DNA from: an uncultured Gammaproteobacteria bacterium
Lineage (GTDB): Bacteria; Patescibacteriota; Microgenomatia; CAYXHB01; CAZYTL01
NCBI GenBank assembly: GCA_964650355.1
Contig: CAZYTL010000003.1
Span: 1,750-65,749 of the forward strand
Length of the DNA: 64,000 nucleotides
Direction of reading: 5' to 3'
Part shown: positions 58,965 through 63,995 of the stretch, piece by piece
How positions within the stretch are numbered: the first letter of the stretch is position 1
How the letters are laid out: each line of letters opens with the position of its first letter
Made by a program: the position numbers and the translations under genes
The notes under the pieces: generated by a model
The model's input: the letters and a program-made list of their open reading frames with translations, nothing else
What the model was told of the DNA's origin: nothing
The model's database searches: none

Positions 58965-59288
58965 TTAACTACCGTAAAATTCATTTGTGACCTGTTTTTT
59001 GGGGGCTATCCTGTCAAAACAATAAACCCCCGGTGCGATCCTTTCGACCTTAACCCGAAAGTCCCCCACCCTTAACCGAAAAACATCCCACTGAGTGTCT
59101 TTAACCTTATCCAGGTCAACCCTCATGCCTAAACCCAATCGCTGTGCTGCATCCAACACTCTCCGAACAATGTCTACTTGCCCATCACGACCTAATTTTT
59201 GTAAATCATCTATTATCGGAACCAAAGACACCATCTGCACCGGGGGATCAAATAGACCCGGGAACCGTTTTGATTCTGTTATTAACAC
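58965..59288 (-). CDS. RelE/ParE-family toxin-like protein (no cognate antitoxin ORF found)
   Basis: ...QWDVFRLRVGDFRVKVERIAPGVYCFDRIAPKKQV matches the RelE/ParE core (yrlRvGdyRviY...hRk). 70 bp downstream of trpS on the same strand. Confidence 0.45.
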   Translation of the reverse strand: MLITESKRFPGLFDPPVQMVSLVPIIDDLQKLGRDGQVDIVRRVLDAAQRLGLGMRVDLDKVKDTQWDVFRLRVGDFRVKVERIAPGVYCFDRIAPKKQVTNEFYGS

Positions 59289-59358: not shown

Positions 59359-60345
59359 TTATCCCAATCCTACCACACTTTCCACCCTCTTCAAAGTCTT
59401 GCTCGACACCGCCTTCGCCCTTTCCGCACCGTCAGCCAGTATCTTTTCAATCTCCCCTGAATCCATCACCTCTTTATACCTCTCCCGTATCGGCCTCAAA
59501 GCCGCCAACACCACCTCTCCCAAATCCTCCTTAAACTTCCCGTAACCCACCCCTGCATACTCCTCTTCCAGATCACCCACACTCCTACCGGACAATTCTG
59601 CATAAATCTGCAGCAAATTACTCATCGCCGGCTTATCTTCCCTCATCACAATCTCCGTTCCTGAATCCGTCACTGCCCGTTTAATCTTCTGCCTTACCAC
59701 ATCCAAATCATCTAACAAATTAATCTTCCCATTCTCATTCTCGTCGCTCTTGCTCATCTTCGAGTTCGGATCCTGCAAACTCATAATCCTCGCCCCTAAT
59801 CGGTCAATCACCGGTACCGGCAGTCTCAAAATATCTTTTCCATACCTGCCATTAAACCTCTCTGCAATATCTCTGGTCAATTCCACATGCTGCTTCTGGT
59901 CATCTCCCACCGGTACTTCGTCTATGTCATACAACAAAATATCCGCTGCCATCAATACCGGATAATCAAACAACCCCGCTGAAATAAAATCTTTTTGCTT
60001 CTTAGCCTTATCCTTGTACTGCGTCATCCTTTGCAACTGCCCCACGCTCGTAAAACAATTTAAAATCCACGCCAACTGTGCGTGATCAAAGTTATGCGAC
60101 TGCACAAACACCACTGACTTTTTAGGATCAATTCCGCATGCGAGATAAAGCGCCGTCAGCTCCCGAATCTTCCGCTTCAACACTTCAGGATCCTGGGGCA
60201 CCGTAATCGCATGCAAATCCACAATACAAAACACATTCTCTCTTTCATCCTGCCTCTCCACCCACTGCTTTATCGCCCCAATATAATTGCCAATGTGCAA
60301 GTCTCCGCTCGGCTGAATTCCCGAAAACACCCACTTCTTGTCCAT
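59359..60345 (-). CDS. trpS: Tryptophanyl-tRNA synthetase
   Basis: HIGH motif GDLHIGNYIGA, KMSKS motif and class I TrpRS length (328 aa). Confidence 0.9.
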   Translation of the reverse strand: MDKKWVFSGIQPSGDLHIGNYIGAIKQWVERQDERENVFCIVDLHAITVPQDPEVLKRKIRELTALYLACGIDPKKSVVFVQSHNFDHAQLAWILNCFTSVGQLQRMTQYKDKAKKQKDFISAGLFDYPVLMAADILLYDIDEVPVGDDQKQHVELTRDIAERFNGRYGKDILRLPVPVIDRLGARIMSLQDPNSKMSKSDENENGKINLLDDLDVVRQKIKRAVTDSGTEIVMREDKPAMSNLLQIYAELSGRSVGDLEEEYAGVGYGKFKEDLGEVVLAALRPIRERYKEVMDSGEIEKILADGAERAKAVSSKTLKRVESVVGLG

Positions 60346-60432: not shown

Positions 60433-61110
60433 TTAAGAATTCACCTTTAGTCCCTCAATCCATCCGTGAATCCTCCGTAAAAAATCAGTACTCTTCCTCA
60501 CCTTAATCCTTAAGACCCCAAAATATTCCTCTGGGTGATCATAAGTCTTTTTCCACTTCACCTGCTGATAAAAGGGTTTCTGGAAGAAACGTTTGTCTAT
60601 TTTAGTAACTTTTGCCCAATATTCCTGAACATCATTAATCCTATACTCATGACTTATATTAAGCGTCACCCGTAAACTTATATCCCTCAAGTTTATTCCA
60701 CAACATTCAACTAACCATTTAATGAAAACTTTAACCATCGTCGGATCAGAATTAGCAAACCCTACCTGCTTGTCCTTTTTGAATCCCTCAGCCCAATAAA
60801 GAGCCACACCCACCAAAAACAACTCTCTTTTGGTTAACTTGCCTACTTCCTCCATCCCAGCTTTCATGAGTCTTTTTGCCCTCTCTTTTCGCTTCCTTTG
60901 CTGTTCCAGGGCATAAGACAATCTTCTACCATAATGAGGATCTTTAGCTCTTCTCTCTAACTCCCTAATCTGATCATCCGATAGCTTAATATCTTTACAC
61001 CAAGCACTAACTGAACCAGGAGAAACCTTTAATTTCTTAGCAATTACCTTTATGCTCTCGCCACCCTTGCGCATCTCTCTTGCCAATCTTCTTTCCTTTG
61101 TCTTGGCCAT
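60433..61110 (-). CDS. HTH-containing protein with degenerate LAGLIDADG-like core (possible free-standing homing-endonuclease-like or regulator)
   Basis: N-terminal ESIKVIAKKLKVSPGSVSAWCK (HTH). LFLVGVALYWAEGFKKDK resembles a LAGLIDADG helix with DGDG replaced by AEG. Confidence 0.35.
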   Translation of the reverse strand: MAKTKERRLAREMRKGGESIKVIAKKLKVSPGSVSAWCKDIKLSDDQIRELERRAKDPHYGRRLSYALEQQRKRKERAKRLMKAGMEEVGKLTKRELFLVGVALYWAEGFKKDKQVGFANSDPTMVKVFIKWLVECCGINLRDISLRVTLNISHEYRINDVQEYWAKVTKIDKRFFQKPFYQQVKWKKTYDHPEEYFGVLRIKVRKSTDFLRRIHGWIEGLKVNS

Positions 61111-61200
61111 TAAGATATATTATACAACAAGCCGGGGTTCAAATTAGTATTGACTTTCAAATAAGTTGAACGTAAAATAAACCTCAGTTTAACAAACACG

Positions 61201-61470
61201 TGCGGGGTAGTGTACGGCTGCACGGAGGGCTAGTAGTATGGGCCCCTTAGGGAGTAATCTCTATTGAATAACCTGGCTATATCGGTAGACAGCCCGATGG
61301 ACATCGGGCCAATATCCGAGGGAAGTCGACCTTATTATCTGGTTTGACCCCGTAGAGACTACACGCCGGGCCCCCGATAAACATCGGGGTGATGATATAG
61401 TCCGACACTCTGAGTAATCAGAGATTACAGATCAGCATAATCCTCCAGACCGGGTTCAACCCCCGGCCCC
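61201..61470 (+). ncRNA. ssrA: Structured RNA candidate with tRNA-like 3' domain (tmRNA-like): 5' tgcgggg pairs with 3' ccccgca; T-arm ccggg-TTCAACC-cccgg
   Basis: Acceptor/T-arm architecture parallels the E. coli tmRNA 3' end (gacgcgggttcaactcccgcc-acceptor). A gaataacctggct segment resembles taataacctgctt at the tag stop. Followed by an intrinsic terminator. No convincing tag ORF found. Confidence 0.35.
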
Positions 61471-61484
61471 GCAACATAAAAAGA

Positions 61485-61506
61485 CCGCCCATATGGCGGT
61501 TTTTTA
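61485..61506 (+). terminator. Rho-independent terminator-like hairpin accgcc-cata-ggcggt + T6 (alternatively an IS200 subterminal hairpin)
   Basis: Perfect 6-bp GC-rich stem followed by tttttt, flanked by an A-run. Confidence 0.5.
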
Positions 61507-61574
61507 ACTGAACATCTCCCCCAAGCTCACAAATTGGTAAATTTAGAGGTGTTCGCTAGGGGGGATCTTTTAAC

Positions 61575-61970
61575 TCAGAAATGATCCGTACGGTTAATAT
61601 AGTCTCGAACCAGTTGTTCGTTAAGTCCACCCACTGTTCGGGCATAATAACCCCGAGCCCAGAATGTCCCGTCTGGTAGCTCTCGTCGTAGCTCAGGAAA
61701 TTCTTTCAACAGTCCTTGGGCTACCTTACTCTTTAATACCTGTAAAACTTTTGAAACTGAAAGCTTTGGTGGTATCAATATCAGCATATGAACATGATCA
61801 ATGGCTACTTTAAGCGTGTCAAATTCGCACCCCAACTCCTGAGCTACTTGGATGAAGAGTGATTCCGCAACTGATGATCTTCGACCACTTAATATCCGTC
61901 TCCTACGTTTAGGGACAAATACAACGTGGTATGAAAAATCAAAGCTCGTATGAGCCGCTGTCCGTTTCAC
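61575..61970 (-). CDS. tnpA: IS200/IS605-family transposase TnpA (HUH Y1)
   Basis: HUH motif IDHVHMLILIPP, catalytic Tyr context RGYYARTVG, 131 aa. Confidence 0.85.
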   Translation of the reverse strand: MKRTAAHTSFDFSYHVVFVPKRRRRILSGRRSSVAESLFIQVAQELGCEFDTLKVAIDHVHMLILIPPKLSVSKVLQVLKSKVAQGLLKEFPELRRELPDGTFWARGYYARTVGGLNEQLVRDYINRTDHF

Positions 61971-62065
61971 TCCTCTATCATATCAGCTATTCGGCCCATG
62001 CGTTTTCCTCACCACCTAGCTTGACTCCCGTCCTGCGCTGGGTGGATTGATAACTTTCAAAATAT

Positions 62066-62836
62066 TTAAGATTTAGGCGGCCAGAATACACCCAAAATAA
62101 TAAAAGTCTTCTTTGGATATACGCTACCCACAATCAAATAAGAATCTTTTTTTTCGCTCCACATTTGATCAAAAAACTTCTGTTTAATCTTATCCAGAAT
62201 TTGATCCATCGCATAACCGTAATTGTCTCTTAGATTCCTATAAAGTTGAAAAACCTCCCAATCATGAATCGAAATTGTGTGCCCCTTACATCTCGGATCG
62301 TCACATACAAACTGATAGCTAAATTTAAAGGGTATTTTTTCTAAATCCTTAGGCTGTTCGCCAAAGAGCTTAAGCTGGCTCAGTTTTTGAAGTTGAACCG
62401 AAGACCATTGTGTGTTATCGGGCTTCGCAATAAAACCCATAATTTCTTTGGGTTTAAAAATCCCAATTGACTTCTTATTTCTATCATACTCATCCAAGAT
62501 TGTTTCCAGTGATCGCGAAGCCGTTGGCAAGATCAACGACTTTCTCTTATTCCACTTTCTATCATTTTTTCGGGTTTCCCAATGATCTCCTAAAATCAAA
62601 GTATTAGGATCCGGGCGGTAACTTTCTTTTCGGAAATCTCTCTCATGCTTTTTAACCCGAGTTGTTATCCACTGATACTTCTTAAACCAACTTTTGAAAG
62701 GCAATTTTCGGAACTCTAAAGGGTAAAGCCTGATCCACTCTCCCCTCCGAGTAACACCGGCCGTACATACGGTCTCATCATATTTTCTAGAAATGGAGGG
62801 ATAAGTCTTAACAACAATAAGAATTTCCTCAACCAT
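62066..62836 (-). CDS. Hypothetical protein (partner of the DUF488 gene)
   Basis: The ORF track start at 62911 would overlap the DUF488 gene by 70 nt. The internal Met (MVEEILIVVKTYP) gives a non-overlapping start. AT-rich. Confidence 0.45.
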   Translation of the reverse strand: MVEEILIVVKTYPSISRKYDETVCTAGVTRRGEWIRLYPLEFRKLPFKSWFKKYQWITTRVKKHERDFRKESYRPDPNTLILGDHWETRKNDRKWNKRKSLILPTASRSLETILDEYDRNKKSIGIFKPKEIMGFIAKPDNTQWSSVQLQKLSQLKLFGEQPKDLEKIPFKFSYQFVCDDPRCKGHTISIHDWEVFQLYRNLRDNYGYAMDQILDKIKQKFFDQMWSEKKDSYLIVGSVYPKKTFIILGVFWPPKS

Positions 62837-62841
62837 CCAGC

Positions 62842-63321
62842 TTATATCGCCAGAATCGTCGTATCCGGTACTATCTTTTGAAGTTCGTCTGCCAAGATTG
62901 TCCTGTGACATAATTCACAATCCTTTTCAAAACACATTACACAGATTGTTTCAAACTGTGTCAAATCCGCAATTTTTTGCACCTCAATGTGTTTATGCTT
63001 AATATAAGCCCGGTACTTACTAAAAAATGTAATATAGTTACCTTCTTGCTTTAATTCATCACGCATTAACTTTGGGCTCCCTAATTCACCAACATGTTGA
63101 TATTGTATACCAGCCTGCTTTAAATACTCCTGTAAAATTTTTTTGGAAAAGCCATGCTTTCTACTTAAAGGGTACTGTCGCACATCAACTAATACCGTCA
63201 CCCCATGTTGCTTCATCTTTCTAATAAACCCTTCTATCGTCTCCTTTTCGTAGCCAGTAAGATAAACAGTTTTGTTCATAAACCCATCTCTAGTTAACCA
63301 CATCTCCTGACTATAAATCAA
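62842..63321 (-). CDS. DUF488-family protein
   Basis: TVYLTGYEKETIEGFIRKM...VLVDVRQYPLSRKHGFSKKILQEYLKQAGIQYQHVGELGSP matches the DUF488 conserved core. Confidence 0.65.
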   Translation of the reverse strand: MIYSQEMWLTRDGFMNKTVYLTGYEKETIEGFIRKMKQHGVTVLVDVRQYPLSRKHGFSKKILQEYLKQAGIQYQHVGELGSPKLMRDELKQEGNYITFFSKYRAYIKHKHIEVQKIADLTQFETICVMCFEKDCELCHRTILADELQKIVPDTTILAI

Positions 63322-63570
63322 ACCTTCTATTGAACTTATCAGCGTATGATTTCTACTAAAATCAGGTATAAAAACAGATTCTAACCTGTCAATAAAATAC
63401 TTTCTGATTTCCCTTCAACAAATTCAGTGCCAGCCTCCACTCCCCGCAACACCACCAAAACTCCTCTCTAGGAGTTTATTTTTTGCTATAATCACTATAG
63501 CTAGCTAAAAGGCAATCCCTAAGGGATCTCTTTAGGACAACTAACAGCTATAAGCTAACAAGCTAATCTA

Positions 63571-63647
63571 GCCAGGGTAGCTCAGTTGGTTAGAGCATCG
63601 GATTCATAAACCGAAGGTCGTGGGTTCAAATCCCACCCCTGGTACCA
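63571..63647 (+). tRNA. tRNA-Met (anticodon CAT), elongator/Ile2-lysidine type, CCA encoded
   Basis: Cloverleaf: acceptor gccaggg/ccctggt, D-arm gctc-agttggtta-gagc, anticodon loop ttCATaa, T-arm gtggg-ttcaaat-cccac, then acca. The anticodon stem lacks the initiator 3xGC signature. Confidence 0.85.
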
Positions 63648-63695: not shown

Positions 63696-63995
63696 CTACC
63701 TGAACCTCTCCCACCACAACTCCCAGTTCGCCTTCTCTTCTACCGTCGGCGTCGGCTCCGGCAGCGCCACTTTAGGCAAGTCTTCCGGCAATACCACCAC
63801 TTCTTCTCCGGGTTTGGCCAAATGCAGCTTATCCCGAATCTCCTTCACCACAAACTCTGTCGCGTCCACCTCTACCAACCGCTGACTCAATTCATAATTC
63901 TCCCTCGCCAGCTTCTTTAGCTCTGCTTCAGTCTCCGTCACCCTTCCTCCAGCTTGTTTTAACCTCCAAATACTCTGCCCCAGGTTCAGCATCAA
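63696..63995 (-). CDS. FtsB/DivIC-like septum-formation initiator (possibly N-terminally truncated by the window end)
   Basis: Coiled-coil ETEAELKKLARENYELSQRL and C-terminal EIRDKLHLAKPGEEVVVL match the FtsB family core. Confidence 0.45.
   Translation of the reverse strand: MMLNLGQSIWRLKQAGGRVTETEAELKKLARENYELSQRLVEVDATEFVVKEIRDKLHLAKPGEEVVVLPEDLPKVALPEPTPTVEEKANWELWWERFR

What the first reader, a model, noticed from the sequence alone, without database searches (positions are those of the whole stretch)
60433..63647. tRNA-Met-anchored accessory island: DUF488 pair, IS200 TnpA, tmRNA-like RNA and LAGLIDADG-like gene
From 62066 to 63321 the sequence becomes AT-rich and loses the strong C>G skew, indicating foreign origin. 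It contains a DUF488 protein and an overlapping unknown partner. Adjacent is an IS200 TnpA. Next to that is a roughly 270-nt structured region (61201-61470) whose 5' end pairs with a 3' tRNA-like acceptor/T-arm (ccggg-TTCAACC-cccgg) and is followed by a clean terminator, so it is tmRNA-like. The island ends at a tRNA-Met(CAU). tRNA and tmRNA genes are classic integration hotspots. I could not find a canonical tag ORF, so the RNA may be a divergent tmRNA, a tRNA-derived integration remnant or something else.
Basis: partly seen in the sequence, partly recalled or inferred. Interest (0 to 1): 0.55.

Follow-up and report, generated by a model that had tools for sequence, protein, structure and literature searches.

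The report
Self-splicing intron inside initiator tRNA gene
The supposed tmRNA-like RNA is an initiator methionine tRNA gene split by a 204-base group I intron, a known kind of element at its classical position, in a candidate-phyla-radiation (CPR) bacterium and next to a small accessory insertion.

Summary
Region 61201-61475 is not tmRNA. It is a tRNA(CAU) gene with an initiator-type acceptor stem, split between U33 and C34 by a 204-nt group I intron (61232-61435). Rfam scores it 56.4 bits against a cutoff of 50, and ARAGORN with introns allowed recovers the tRNA. This is the classical 'fMet.2Ug' site known from cyanobacteria.

The same interrupted gene occurs in about 45 of 80 related Patescibacteria genome loci and 33 of 120 metagenome loci. 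Covariation is strong: 39 of 65 pairs change on both sides.

The IS200 TnpA and the DUF488 pair (PADLOC candidate defence system PDC-M19) form a true accessory insertion. It is absent from all 80 related genome loci, where DivIC lies a few tens to a few hundred bases from the tRNA-fMet gene. It has no integrase and no att repeats.

The 'LAGLIDADG-like' gene has an HTH plus an unknown domain, and it failed every LAGLIDADG test. It belongs to a large family wedged against tRNA genes. It is enriched next to intron-bearing alleles, and its history is decoupled from the flanking host genes. That is the one open lead.

Verdict: a new member of a known kind, of moderate interest.

The parts
61150..61178 (+). 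Sigma-70-like promoter match (TTGACT, 17 nt, TAAAAT), 22 nt upstream of the tRNA 5' end
   Evidence: Consensus scan, (10 of 12 matches). This is a consensus match only; function is inferred.
61201..61231 (+). Exon 1 of tRNA-fMet(CAU): acceptor 5' strand, D-arm, anticodon-stem 5' strand and C32-U33. Ends in GGGCU.
   Evidence: ARAGORN with introns allowed. Conserved in 41 relatives.
61232..61435 (+). Group I intron, 204 nt, no ORF. Helices P1-P9 plus P10. GUAA tetraloops in L2 and L9. U.G wobble at the 5' splice site and a terminal G before the 3' splice site.
   Evidence: Rfam RF00028: 56.4 bits (cutoff 50), E 1.2e-11. All helices complementary in the window. Covariation on 35 sequences.
61272..61423 (+). 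Catalytic core and periphery of the intron: P3 61272-77/61365-70, P4 61282-87/61313-19, P5 61292-98/61303-09, P6 61320-22/61349-51, P7 61357-61/61398-402, P8 61372-78/61383-89, P9 61408-13/61418-23
   Evidence: P3, P4, P7 and P9 are paired in 96-99% of cells. P3, P8 and P9 show compensatory changes.
61436..61474 (+). Exon 2 of tRNA-fMet: anticodon CAU, A37-A38, anticodon-stem 3' strand, variable loop, T-arm, acceptor 3' strand and discriminator A. CCA is not encoded.
   Evidence: ARAGORN (its call runs to 61475). Alignment.
61479..61505 (.). G+C-rich hairpin flanked by an A-run and a T-run (AAAAGACCGCC...GGCGGTTTTTT). Terminator-like in both directions.
60433..61110 (-). 225-aa protein: N-terminal HTH plus a C-terminal alpha/beta domain with no Pfam family. 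Transcribed divergently, 90 nt from the tRNA 5' end. Member of a large tRNA-gene-linked family in Patescibacteria and some phages.
   Evidence: LAGLIDADG tests negative.
61575..61970 (-). IS200/IS605-family Y1 transposase TnpA (131 aa), part of the accessory insertion
   Evidence: Pfam PF01797 1.5e-31. NCBIfam NF033573 1.8e-37. No homologue in any of the 80 related genome loci.
62066..62911 (-). PDC-M19B-like protein (281 aa as the longest ORF; 256 aa in the public gene call), with no Pfam family
   Evidence: PADLOC PDLC04508 3.8e-74. Gene call in L081.
62842..63321 (-). DUF488 protein, PDC-M19A-like (159 aa as the longest ORF; 145 aa in the public gene call)
   Evidence: Pfam PF04343 2.1e-30. 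PADLOC PDLC04505 1.1e-38.
63571..63647 (+). Elongator-type tRNA-Met(CAU), uninterrupted, CCA encoded. It is the orthologue of the tRNA-Met that lies directly downstream of the HTH gene in relatives. Here it sits on the far side of the insertion, in the opposite orientation.
63696..63995 (-). DivIC-like septum protein, a backbone gene that in most related loci lies a few tens to a few hundred bases from the tRNA-fMet gene
   Evidence: Pfam DivIC 3e-07. Synteny.
59359..60345 (-). Tryptophanyl-tRNA synthetase, a backbone gene

Best explanation
Positions 61201-61475 (+) are the gene for an initiator-type methionine tRNA, tRNA-fMet with anticodon CAU. A 204-nt ORF-less group I intron of the compact tRNA type splits its anticodon loop between U33 and C34.

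Inferred mechanism. The gene is transcribed from a promoter about 22 nt upstream and ends at the hairpin at 61479-61505. The intron folds into P1-P9. The exon end GGGCU pairs with the internal guide GGCCC, placing a U.G wobble at the 5' splice site. The guide's AUG pairs with the anticodon CAU to form P10. Exogenous guanosine attacks after U33. The freed 3' OH then attacks after the terminal G (61435). This joins the exons into a 71-nt tRNA with loop CU-CAU-AA.

This is the classical bacterial 'fMet.2Ug' intron site, here in a Patescibacteria (Microgenomates-like) genome.

Region 61476-63570 beside it is a separate accessory insertion into a conserved backbone. It carries an IS200 transposase and a two-gene candidate defence system (PDC-M19: a DUF488 protein plus partner).

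The divergent 225-aa HTH gene belongs to the backbone. It is a member of a tRNA-gene-linked, apparently mobile family of unknown biochemical function.

Shown: gene structure, intron class, splice-site geometry, conservation and covariation, synteny. Inferred: actual splicing, promoter and terminator use, initiator function.
For: - Rfam Intron_gpI covers 61222-61424 at 56.4 bits (cutoff 50), E 1.2e-11, matching model positions 1-253. It is the only match with E below 0.2 in this region when hits up to E 10 are listed.
The in-silico spliced sequence gives a normal 71-nt cloverleaf.
- Every helix from P1 to P10 is complementary in the window. L2 and L9 are both GUAA.
- 41 homologous interrupted genes in related genome loci all show ...GGCU | intron ... 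G | CAUAA....
- On 35 sequences, 94.5% of cells are paired and 39 of 65 pairs change on both sides. No shuffle out of 500 reaches these values, and slid controls pair at only 33-46% (RNAalifold).
- Intronless alleles of the same tRNA have exactly the predicted ligated sequence GAGGCUCAUAAUCUC.
- One relative (L016) carries a true LAGLIDADG ORF inside the intron (Pfam 1.5e-6 and 4.4e-6).
- Literature: fMet.2Ug is one of the four classical bacterial tRNA intron settings, all subgroup IC3, and genomes of unnamed phyla average 0.49 interrupted tRNAs each (bioRxiv 10.1101/2020.01.27.920355). CPR tRNAs with group I introns are noted in PMC8172020.
- Initiator assignment: the acceptor UGCGGGG/CCCCGCA-A matches E. 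coli tRNA-fMet (CGCGGGG/CCCCGCA-A, from memory). About half of the relatives have the C1xA72 mismatch. The neighbouring loci also carry an elongator-type tRNA-Met and a tRNA-Ile(UAU).
- Accessory block: PADLOC PDC-M19B 3.8e-74 and PDC-M19A 1.1e-38; IS200. None of the 80 related genome loci has these genes, and there DivIC lies beside the tRNA-fMet gene. The same backbone is seen in the metagenome loci.
Against: - No splicing experiment and no RNA data were available.
- The window's tRNA has U1-A72 rather than the C1xA72 mismatch.
- It has only two G-C pairs plus one G.U in the lower anticodon stem, instead of three G-C pairs.
- It has U11:A24, which is elongator-like. The initiator identity therefore rests on acceptor-stem determinants, on relatives, and on elimination.
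- The IC3 subgroup was inferred from compactness, the tetraloops, core motifs recalled from the Azoarcus intron, and the literature. No subgroup classifier was run.
- The Rfam score is only 6 bits above the cutoff. The Rfam seed contains no bacterial introns.
- Only 64 kb of the genome is visible, so a second, uninterrupted initiator gene cannot be excluded.
Confidence: 0.93

Rival explanations
1. The RNA is a divergent tmRNA (ssrA). Its tRNA-like ends would enclose an mRNA-like and pseudoknot domain.
For: The 5' and 3' ends pair into an acceptor stem with a T-arm, and the length (about 275 nt) is tmRNA-like.
Against: ARAGORN finds no tmRNA in the window. No Rfam tmRNA family matches, even at E<=10. 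There is no tag ORF. A full D-arm, anticodon stem and CAU anticodon are present once the intron is removed. The interior matches a group I core with covariation.
Confidence: 0.01
2. The two tRNA halves are a tRNA gene broken by an integrated element, or an att-site remnant, so the gene is dead.
For: tRNA genes are common integration sites, and an IS200 and foreign genes lie next door.
Against: The insert is a 204-nt ribozyme with no coding capacity. The two halves join precisely at U33/C34 to give a complete tRNA. The same arrangement is kept, with compensatory changes, in dozens of divergent genomes. There are no att-like repeats.
Confidence: 0.02
3. The 225-aa HTH gene is a free-standing homing endonuclease. 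It cleaves intronless tRNA-fMet genes at the intron insertion site, and the intron protects its own genome. This is collaborative homing, as with F-CphI and the psbA intron.
For: - The gene sits 55-130 nt from the tRNA-fMet gene.
- It is a bare ORF of about 680 nt wedged between the otherwise adjacent tRNA-Met and tRNA-fMet genes.
- From the tRNA side, the counts are: intron with HTH 12, intron only 14, HTH only 1, neither 30 (Fisher p 2e-4).
- Presence and absence are scattered across the intron tree.
- Its pairwise identities do not track those of the flanking FtsH and TrpRS genes (rho 0.05 and -0.08, against 0.74 between FtsH and TrpRS).
- Relatives lie between tRNA genes in phage tRNA arrays.
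- The concept is reviewed in PMC3984707.
Against: - No nuclease fold or motif was found. Pfam, PHROGs and PADLOC show only the HTH or nothing. Foldseek gives nothing below E 0.04. hhalign against a true LAGLIDADG protein gives a probability of 0.2%.
- At least six genome loci carry the gene next to an intronless tRNA-fMet with an identical anticodon-loop sequence, which would be suicidal.
- Paralogues sit next to intronless tRNA-Gln and tRNA-Ile(UAU) genes.
- The association test is not corrected for phylogeny.
Confidence: 0.25
4. The 225-aa protein is a trans-acting splicing or tRNA-processing cofactor (maturase-like) for the interrupted initiator tRNA.
For: It is enriched next to intron-bearing alleles. 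Many aromatic and basic residues are invariant, as expected for a nucleic-acid binder. Splicing of what may be the only initiator tRNA would be essential.
Against: Introns with and without the neighbouring gene are the same length (200 against 197 nt) and keep the same GNRA L2 and L9 loops, so nothing indicates protein dependence. More than half of the intron-bearing metagenome loci lack the gene nearby. Paralogues and some orthologues accompany intronless tRNAs. IC3 tRNA introns on viral contigs lack the family.
Confidence: 0.12
5. The 225-aa protein is an ordinary HTH transcription regulator of the divergently transcribed tRNA genes, and its link to the intron is phylogenetic coincidence.
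For: It has an N-terminal HTH. The divergent arrangement leaves about 90 nt of shared control region. Its ORF is fused tail-to-head to a downstream tRNA gene, which suggests co-transcription.
Against: Its history is decoupled from that of the flanking genes. It is present or absent sporadically within one and the same backbone. Copies occur inside phage tRNA arrays. A regulator need not sit next to each target tRNA as separate paralogues.
Confidence: 0.2

Closest known systems
Cyanobacterial tRNA-fMet group I intron (Synechocystis, Scytonema, Dermocarpa), class 'fMet.2Ug' of Williams 2020
   Same: Same host gene type (initiator tRNA). Same insertion point (CU | CAUAA, after U33). U-1 and terminal G. 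Compact tRNA-type group I intron with a sporadic distribution. Some copies carry a homing endonuclease ORF (the cyanobacterial details are from memory of Biniszkiewicz 1994 and Bonocora & Shub 2001, cited).
   Different: The host is a Patescibacteria (CPR) bacterium. The window's copy has no ORF. The intron ORF seen in relative L016 is a LAGLIDADG protein, whereas I-Ssp6803I of Synechocystis is a PD-(D/E)XK enzyme (memory).
Azoarcus pre-tRNA-Ile(CAU) group I intron (subgroup IC3, about 205 nt)
   Same: Size (204 against about 205 nt). No P5abc extension. GNRA tetraloops in L2 and L9. Core motifs such as GUAGAGACUA-ACG and UCGGUGAAACC (Azoarcus sequence from memory; phage examples of that type seen).
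   Different: The Azoarcus-type intron is inserted after the anticodon (CAU | , class Ile2.5Ug), not before it. Here the P1 guide pairs with GGGCU, and P10 pairs with the anticodon itself.
Collaborative homing systems: free-standing F-CphI with the ORF-less psbA intron of cyanophage S-PM2, and T4 mobE with I-TevIII
   Same: [quoted passage not shown] That gene shows sporadic presence and a history decoupled from the host (concept from PMC3984707, PMC6083498 and PMC2790892).
   Different: No nuclease domain or activity is shown for the 225-aa protein. Some genomes carry it next to an unprotected target.
Free-standing homing endonuclease genes inside phage tRNA gene clusters (T4 SegB, T5 F-Tfl enzymes; from memory)
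   Same: Small ORFs wedged between tRNA genes. Relatives of the 225-aa protein occupy such positions in phage tRNA arrays and beside tRNA-Met, tRNA-Gln and tRNA-Ile genes in Patescibacteria.
   Different: Those enzymes are GIY-YIG or HNH proteins. This family has an HTH plus an uncharacterised domain.
PADLOC candidate defence system PDC-M19 (DUF488 protein plus partner), next to an IS200/IS605 TnpA
   Same: Both component profiles hit adjacent genes in the expected pairing. Composition and distribution are those of accessory DNA.
   Different: PDC systems are computational candidates, and no anti-phage activity is known to me. The A-profile match covers only the C-terminal half of the profile (positions 147-284 of 294).

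Membership tests
Group I intron (Rfam RF00028) | Covariance-model score at or above the curated gathering cutoff | tested here: met
   56.4 bits against a cutoff of 50, E 1.2e-11, full-length match to model positions 1-253.
Group I intron (Rfam RF00028) | 5' splice site after a U that forms a U.G wobble in P1 with the internal guide; intron ends in G | tested here: met
   U at 61231 pairs with G at 61241, and G at 61435 precedes exon 2. The U.G pair is invariant in 35 of 35 sequences. The terminal G is present in 34 of 35.
Group I intron (Rfam RF00028) | Conserved core helices P3-P8 with the P3/P7 pseudoknot, supported by covariation | tested here: met
   P3 is paired in 96% of cells, with 5 of 6 pairs changing on both sides. 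P7 is 98% paired. P4 is 99% paired. P9 is 98% paired, with 5 of 6 pairs compensatory. Overall 39 of 65 pairs change on both sides and no shuffle out of 500 reaches this.
Group I intron (Rfam RF00028) | Guanosine-dependent self-splicing | not testable with these tools
   Needs an in vitro splicing assay or RNA sequencing.
Subgroup IC3 tRNA introns, class fMet.2Ug | Insertion between anticodon-loop nucleotides 2 and 3 (U33 | C34) of tRNA-fMet | tested here: met
   ARAGORN gives 'gggct-Intron-cataa'. The nomenclature is from bioRxiv 10.1101/2020.01.27.920355.
Subgroup IC3 tRNA introns, class fMet.2Ug | IC3 architecture: compact (about 200 nt), no P5abc, peripheral tetraloop contacts | tested here: inconclusive
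   204 nt, a simple P5 hairpin, and GUAA in L2 and L9. No formal subgroup classifier or reference IC3 alignment was available.
Bacterial initiator tRNA (tRNA-fMet) | CAU anticodon with acceptor determinants G2:C71, C3:G70 and A73 | tested here: met
   UGCGGGG...CCCCGCA-A. The determinants are from established knowledge of formyltransferase recognition.
Bacterial initiator tRNA (tRNA-fMet) | Unpaired 1:72 (C1xA72) | tested here: not met
   The window has U1-A72. About half of the homologous genes in relatives have C1xA72.
Bacterial initiator tRNA (tRNA-fMet) | Three consecutive G:C pairs at 29-31:39-41, and A11:U24 | tested here: not met
   The window has G29-C41, G30-C40 and G31.U39, with U11:A24. 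Relatives often have A29-U41. The initiator role is therefore assigned by acceptor stem and by elimination, since an elongator tRNA-Met and a tRNA-Ile(UAU) lie nearby.
tmRNA (ssrA) | Detection by a tmRNA model (ARAGORN or Rfam tmRNA families) and a tag-peptide reading frame | tested here: not met
   No tmRNA in the window. No tmRNA family even at E<=10.
LAGLIDADG homing endonuclease (for the 225-aa protein at 60433-61110) | Match to LAGLIDADG sequence profiles | tested here: not met
   No Pfam LAGLIDADG hit in any of 25 family members at E<=1. The profile against PDB gives I-DmoI at E 0.27 only, with the motif GLYVAEGD against ALYWAEGF. hhalign against a true LAGLIDADG ORF gives a probability of 0.2%.
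LAGLIDADG homing endonuclease (for the 225-aa protein at 60433-61110) | Alpha-beta-beta-alpha-beta-beta-alpha fold | tested here: not met
   AlphaFold models have pLDDT 88.6 and 88.0. Foldseek against PDB finds no LAGLIDADG entry among the 50 listed hits in either search; the best hits are E 0.045 and 0.07, to MotB, YfiB and IspF.
IS200/IS605 TnpA | Y1 (HUH) transposase domain above curated cutoffs | tested here: met
   PF01797 at 109.5 bits (cutoff 23). NF033573 at 128.4 bits (cutoff 55). The element ends were not defined.
PADLOC PDC-M19 candidate defence system | Adjacent genes matching both the M19A and M19B profiles | tested here: met
   M19B 3.8e-74 and M19A 1.1e-38, in adjacent genes on the same strand. 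Anti-phage activity cannot be tested here.
tRNA-targeted integrative genomic island | Integrase gene and direct repeat of the tRNA 3' end (att sites) bounding the island | tested here: not met
   There is no integrase among the ORFs. No direct repeat of 13 nt or more links the ends.

The most novel reading that the evidence does not exclude
The 225-aa HTH protein would represent a previously undescribed family of free-standing, horizontally mobile genes that home to the 5' flank of tRNA genes in Patescibacteria and their phages. The clade next to tRNA-fMet would be functionally partnered with the ORF-less initiator-tRNA intron. It would act either as a new type of homing endonuclease in a collaborative-homing pair, or as a trans-acting factor for the interrupted tRNA.
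Probability: 0.3. Interest if true: 0.7.

Novelty: new member of a known kind. Interest (0 to 1): 0.4.

Why it matters
The practical point is annotation. Standard tRNA finders miss this gene: ARAGORN in default mode found only one tRNA in 64 kb. Such genomes would then appear to lack an initiator tRNA, and the locus invites misreadings such as tmRNA.

Biologically, a reduced-genome bacterium appears to depend on ribozyme self-splicing to make its initiator tRNA. The same tRNA occurs with and without the intron in related lineages, which makes a good natural system for studying intron gain and loss.

The larger potential value lies in the neighbouring protein family. It comprises thousands of 50%-identity clusters and has no Pfam domain for its C-terminal half. 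It is always pressed against tRNA genes and is enriched beside intron-bearing alleles. Its history is decoupled from that of the host genes. If it proves to be a nuclease or a splicing factor, it would add a new player to group I intron mobility and to tRNA gene biology in the candidate phyla radiation.

Tried and rejected
- **tmRNA.** ARAGORN and Rfam (gathering cutoffs, and E<=10) gave no support.
- **LAGLIDADG identity of the 225-aa protein.** Checked with Pfam on 25 members, NCBIfam, PHROGs, phmmer and profile searches against PDB, Foldseek of the full-length model against PDB and BFVD, Foldseek of a C-domain-only model, and hhalign against the true LAGLIDADG ORF of L016. The only hint was I-DmoI at E 0.27 with a similar 'LYxAEG' motif. 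Rejected as unproven.
- **Bridging to annotated families through the 1.84-billion-protein representative search.** Only the 150 best hits are listed, all close family members, so no bridge was obtained.
- **Integrase-type island.** No att repeats and no integrase. The block has no plasmid relatives.
- **Maturase signature.** I looked for RNA degeneration in introns that have the neighbouring gene and found none.
- **Intron as immunity to a nuclease.** I looked for target-site differences in genomes that have the HTH gene but no intron. The sequences are identical.
- **First look-up of the window protein in the contig index.** It failed.
- **Covariance model of the whole pre-tRNA.** Not built because of the length limit on calibration. 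nhmmer profiles were used instead.

Full report
**What is in the sequence.** ARAGORN in default mode finds one tRNA in the 64-kb window, tRNA-Met(CAU) at 63571-63647, and no tmRNA. Rfam at gathering cutoffs finds that tRNA and one other RNA: Intron_gpI (RF00028) at 61222-61424 on the + strand, 56.4 bits against a cutoff of 50, E 1.2e-11, matching the whole model. With introns allowed, ARAGORN calls a tRNA-Met(cat) spanning 61201-61475 with a 204-nt intron at 'gggct-Intron-cataa'. Removing 61232-61435 in silico gives a normal 71-nt cloverleaf. A permissive Rfam scan of 61100-61560 lists no tmRNA family even at E<=10. The tmRNA reading is therefore refuted.

**Anatomy of the intron in the window.**
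- The exon end GGGCU (61227-61231) pairs with GGCCC (61241-61245). This forms P1, with the U.G wobble at the splice site.
- The intron ends in G at 61435.
- AUG (61238-61240) of the guide region can pair with the anticodon CAU (61436-61438) to form P10.
- P2, P3, P4, P5, P6/P6a, P7, P8 and P9 are all fully complementary, apart from one terminal U-U in P2.
- P3 and P7 cross as the usual pseudoknot.
- L2 and L9 are both GUAA tetraloops.
- The intron is compact, has no P5abc extension and no ORF.
- A sigma-70-like match (TTGACT, 17 nt, TAAAAT) ends 22 nt before the tRNA 5' end. A G+C-rich hairpin with flanking A- and T-runs follows the 3' end. Their use is inferred.

**Is it more than chance?** The 225-aa protein next door was used to fetch 80 related loci from species-representative genomes, all Patescibacteria/CPR or mislabelled MAGs.
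- An nhmmer profile seeded with the window's pre-tRNA found full-length homologues in about 45 of them, almost all 55-130 nt upstream of the protein gene.
- All 41 extracted copies read ...GGCU | intron ... G | CAUAA....
- In an alignment of 35 copies, 58 columns are invariant, many of them in the J6/7-P7-J8/7 core.
- RNAalifold finds compensatory changes at 35 of 59 predicted pairs.
- For a structure with P1-P9, the P7 pseudoknot and the tRNA stems, 94.5% of cells are paired and 39 of 65 pairs change on both sides. The covariation score is 0.38 against 0.17 in shuffles. No shuffle out of 500 reaches any of these measures, and sliding the 3' partners drops pairing to 33-46%.
- This is a conserved, structured ribozyme, not a chance match.

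**Identity of the host tRNA.**
- The acceptor stem UGCGGGG/CCCCGCA with discriminator A matches E. coli tRNA-fMet apart from position 1 (memory). About half of the relatives have C1 opposite A72, the bacterial initiator hallmark.
- The window has U1-A72. The three G-C pairs of the anticodon stem and A11:U24 are not kept, so two textbook initiator features are not met.
- However, the same loci carry an elongator-type tRNA-Met and often a tRNA-Ile(UAU). That leaves the initiator role for this gene.
- I assign it as the initiator with about 85% confidence.

**Comparison with what is known.** Williams (bioRxiv 10.1101/2020.01.27.920355) lists four classical bacterial tRNA intron settings: Leu.3Ug, Arg.5Ug, fMet.2Ug and Ile2.5Ug. 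All are subgroup IC3. The paper reports 0.49 interrupted tRNA genes per genome in metagenomic assemblies of unnamed phyla. The present intron sits after the second anticodon-loop nucleotide, with U-1 and a terminal G, which is exactly fMet.2Ug. Lui et al. (PMC8172020) mention that some CPR tRNAs carry group I introns that hinder detection. The RNA is therefore a new member of a known kind.

One relative (L016) has a 178-aa ORF inside the intron that passes the Pfam LAGLIDADG_3 and LAGLIDADG_1 cutoffs. This intron lineage can thus host a conventional homing endonuclease. An IC3-type core pattern also occurs on at least 120 viral contigs, mostly in tRNA-Leu(UAA) and other tRNAs.

**The 'island'.**
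- In several of the related genome loci (L002, L003, L004, L015, L066, L070) the gene order is DivIC, tRNA-fMet, HTH gene, tRNA-Met, TrpRS, FtsH, with DivIC lying a few tens to a few hundred bases from the tRNA-fMet gene. The metagenome loci show the same backbone genes in several arrangements.
- In the window, 2.2 kb separates the tRNA-fMet gene from DivIC. This stretch holds the terminator hairpin, IS200 TnpA, a 281-aa protein and a DUF488 protein.
- PADLOC assigns those two proteins to the two components of candidate defence system PDC-M19 (3.8e-74 and 1.1e-38).
- None of the 80 genome loci has a homologue of these three genes. G+C falls to 0.34-0.40 and the skew weakens.
- There is no integrase, no att-like direct repeat and no plasmid relative, so tRNA-targeted integration is not supported.
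- The tRNA-Met at 63571 is the orthologue of the one that normally follows the HTH gene. Here it lies on the other side of the insertion and is inverted, so a local rearrangement accompanied the insertion.
- The tRNA-fMet gene and the HTH gene are backbone, not cargo.

**The 225-aa gene (60433-61110, -): what it is.**
- It has a weak N-terminal HTH, below Pfam cutoffs in the window copy but recurrent across members.
- Its C-terminal domain of about 135 aa has no Pfam, NCBIfam, PHROGs or PADLOC family.
- The family is large: 654 hits at 90% clustering, at least 589 species genomes, and 5,529 clusters at 50% identity with E<=1e-3, of which 2,953 have E<=1e-10.
- AlphaFold models are confident (pLDDT 88.6 full length, 88.0 for the C-domain). 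Foldseek finds nothing below E 0.04 in PDB or BFVD and no LAGLIDADG entry among the listed hits.
- The only LAGLIDADG hint is a profile match to the second domain of I-DmoI at E 0.27, with the motif GLYVAEGD against ALYWAEGF. hhalign against the true LAGLIDADG ORF of L016 gives a probability of 0.2%.
- I therefore do not file it as LAGLIDADG.

**The 225-aa gene: its context.**
- In the loci, family members almost always end within -22 to +30 nt of a same-strand tRNA gene. The partner is tRNA-Met(CAU) for the clade of the window protein, tRNA-Gln(UUG) for a Parcubacteria-type clade, and tRNA-Ile(UAU) for distant paralogues.
- In many cases the reading frame runs into the tRNA and stops at its U8-A9-G10.
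- Four phage contigs carry relatives of about 31% identity. Three of these lie in stretches that hold several tRNA genes; on L083 the ORF sits between two tRNA-Leu genes.

**The 225-aa gene: sampling from the tRNA side.** An exon-1 pattern scan of metagenome contigs returned 120 loci. Of these, 76 were intronless, 33 had an intron of 176-238 nt and 11 were truncated.
- The same backbone genes recur. In many of the empty sites tRNA-Met and tRNA-fMet are divergent and 50-100 nt apart. The HTH ORF of about 680 nt sits exactly between them when present.
- Counting only loci with at least 850 nt on both sides: intron with HTH 12, intron only 14, HTH only 1, neither 30 (naive Fisher p 2e-4).
- Intron-only loci are scattered among HTH-bearing ones on an intron tree.
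- Across 12 loci with all three genes, pairwise identities of FtsH and TrpRS correlate strongly (rho 0.74). Those of the HTH protein correlate with neither (0.05 and -0.08). On larger subsets the values are 0.30 and 0.03.
- The intron's identities are likewise uncorrelated with the host genes (-0.04 and 0.09) and only weakly with the HTH protein (0.13).
- These patterns fit a mobile gene, perhaps a free-standing homing-endonuclease-like element partnered with the intron (collaborative homing; PMC3984707).

**Evidence against that reading.**
- No nuclease signature was found.
- At least six genome loci have the gene next to an intronless tRNA-fMet with the identical anticodon-loop sequence.
- Paralogues accompany intronless tRNAs.
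- A maturase role is not favoured either. Introns with and without the neighbouring gene have the same length and the same GNRA loops, and more than half of the intron-bearing metagenome loci lack the gene nearby.
- I leave its function open. My rough weights are: mobile or nuclease-like 0.25, regulator 0.2, splicing or processing factor 0.12, something else for the remainder.

**Verdict.** The tmRNA and LAGLIDADG labels are wrong, and the island is half right. The core feature is a group I intron at the classical position in an initiator tRNA gene of a CPR bacterium: a new member of a known kind, useful mainly for annotation. The adjoining tRNA-linked protein family is the one element that could repay further work.

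Noticed in passing
L001-L080 and L206-L325 (tRNA-fMet genes); window 61214-61219 and 61455-61461: The D-loop and T-loop of this initiator tRNA covary without exception in 131 genes. D-loops containing GG go with T-loops starting TTC (65), TCC (4) or TTT (4). D-loops without GG (for example CAGT) go with CGC (46) or TGC (12). This suggests an alternative elbow contact (A18-G55 in place of G18-U55). The window has the canonical GG/TTC form.
   Followed up: partly
L002:6675-6684, L007:1149-1158, L038:6678-6687, L052:6676-6690 and many others: The reading frame of the HTH-family gene runs into the 5' end of the downstream tRNA gene and uses a stop codon inside it, often U8-A9-G10 = TAG. RNase P cleavage of a co-transcript would therefore remove the stop codon. 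The window copy has lost this neighbour and ends in its own TAA.
   Followed up: partly
L016:598-1131 (-): In one Patescibacteria genome the tRNA-fMet intron carries a 178-aa ORF with a canonical LAGLIDADG motif (LAGIIDGEG) that passes the Pfam LAGLIDADG_3 and LAGLIDADG_1 cutoffs. The HTH-family gene is still adjacent.
   Followed up: partly
L008:3842-4126 (+): A second interrupted tRNA in a related genome: ARAGORN calls tRNA-Asn(GUU) with a 211-nt intron that also matches the intron profile. No HTH-family gene is next to it.
   Followed up: no
L082-L085 (IMG/VR viral contigs); L083:3956-4708: Relatives of the 225-aa protein (about 31% identity) lie on viral contigs. On L083 the ORF lies between tRNA-Leu(AAG) and tRNA-Leu(CAG), and its end overlaps the second tRNA.
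   Followed up: partly
L119:11300-11585 and L168:5874-6154 (viral contigs): Phage tRNA(CAU) genes with Azoarcus-like introns inserted after the anticodon (ACUCAU | ...). This is a different class (Ile2.5Ug type) from the window's intron. The IC3 core pattern occurs on at least 120 viral contigs, mostly in tRNA-Leu(UAA).
   Followed up: no
window 62066-63321 (-): The DUF488 gene and its partner match both components of the PADLOC candidate defence system PDC-M19. The partner has no Pfam family.
   Followed up: partly
P0180, P0209, P0210, P0223, P0249 (representative search): Some family members are 500-580 aa long and match the 225-aa profile in two or three separate stretches. These are apparently tandem fusions of the module.
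   Followed up: no
window 58965-59288 (-): A 107-aa ORF between FtsH and TrpRS has no Pfam or PADLOC match. It is also called as a gene in the public assembly.
   Followed up: no
L002, L004, L005 and other locus titles: Many of the related genome records are labelled 'uncultured Gammaproteobacteria/Pseudomonadales bacterium'. They nevertheless carry the Patescibacteria-type backbone and proteins, so the taxonomic labels of these MAGs look wrong.
   Followed up: no
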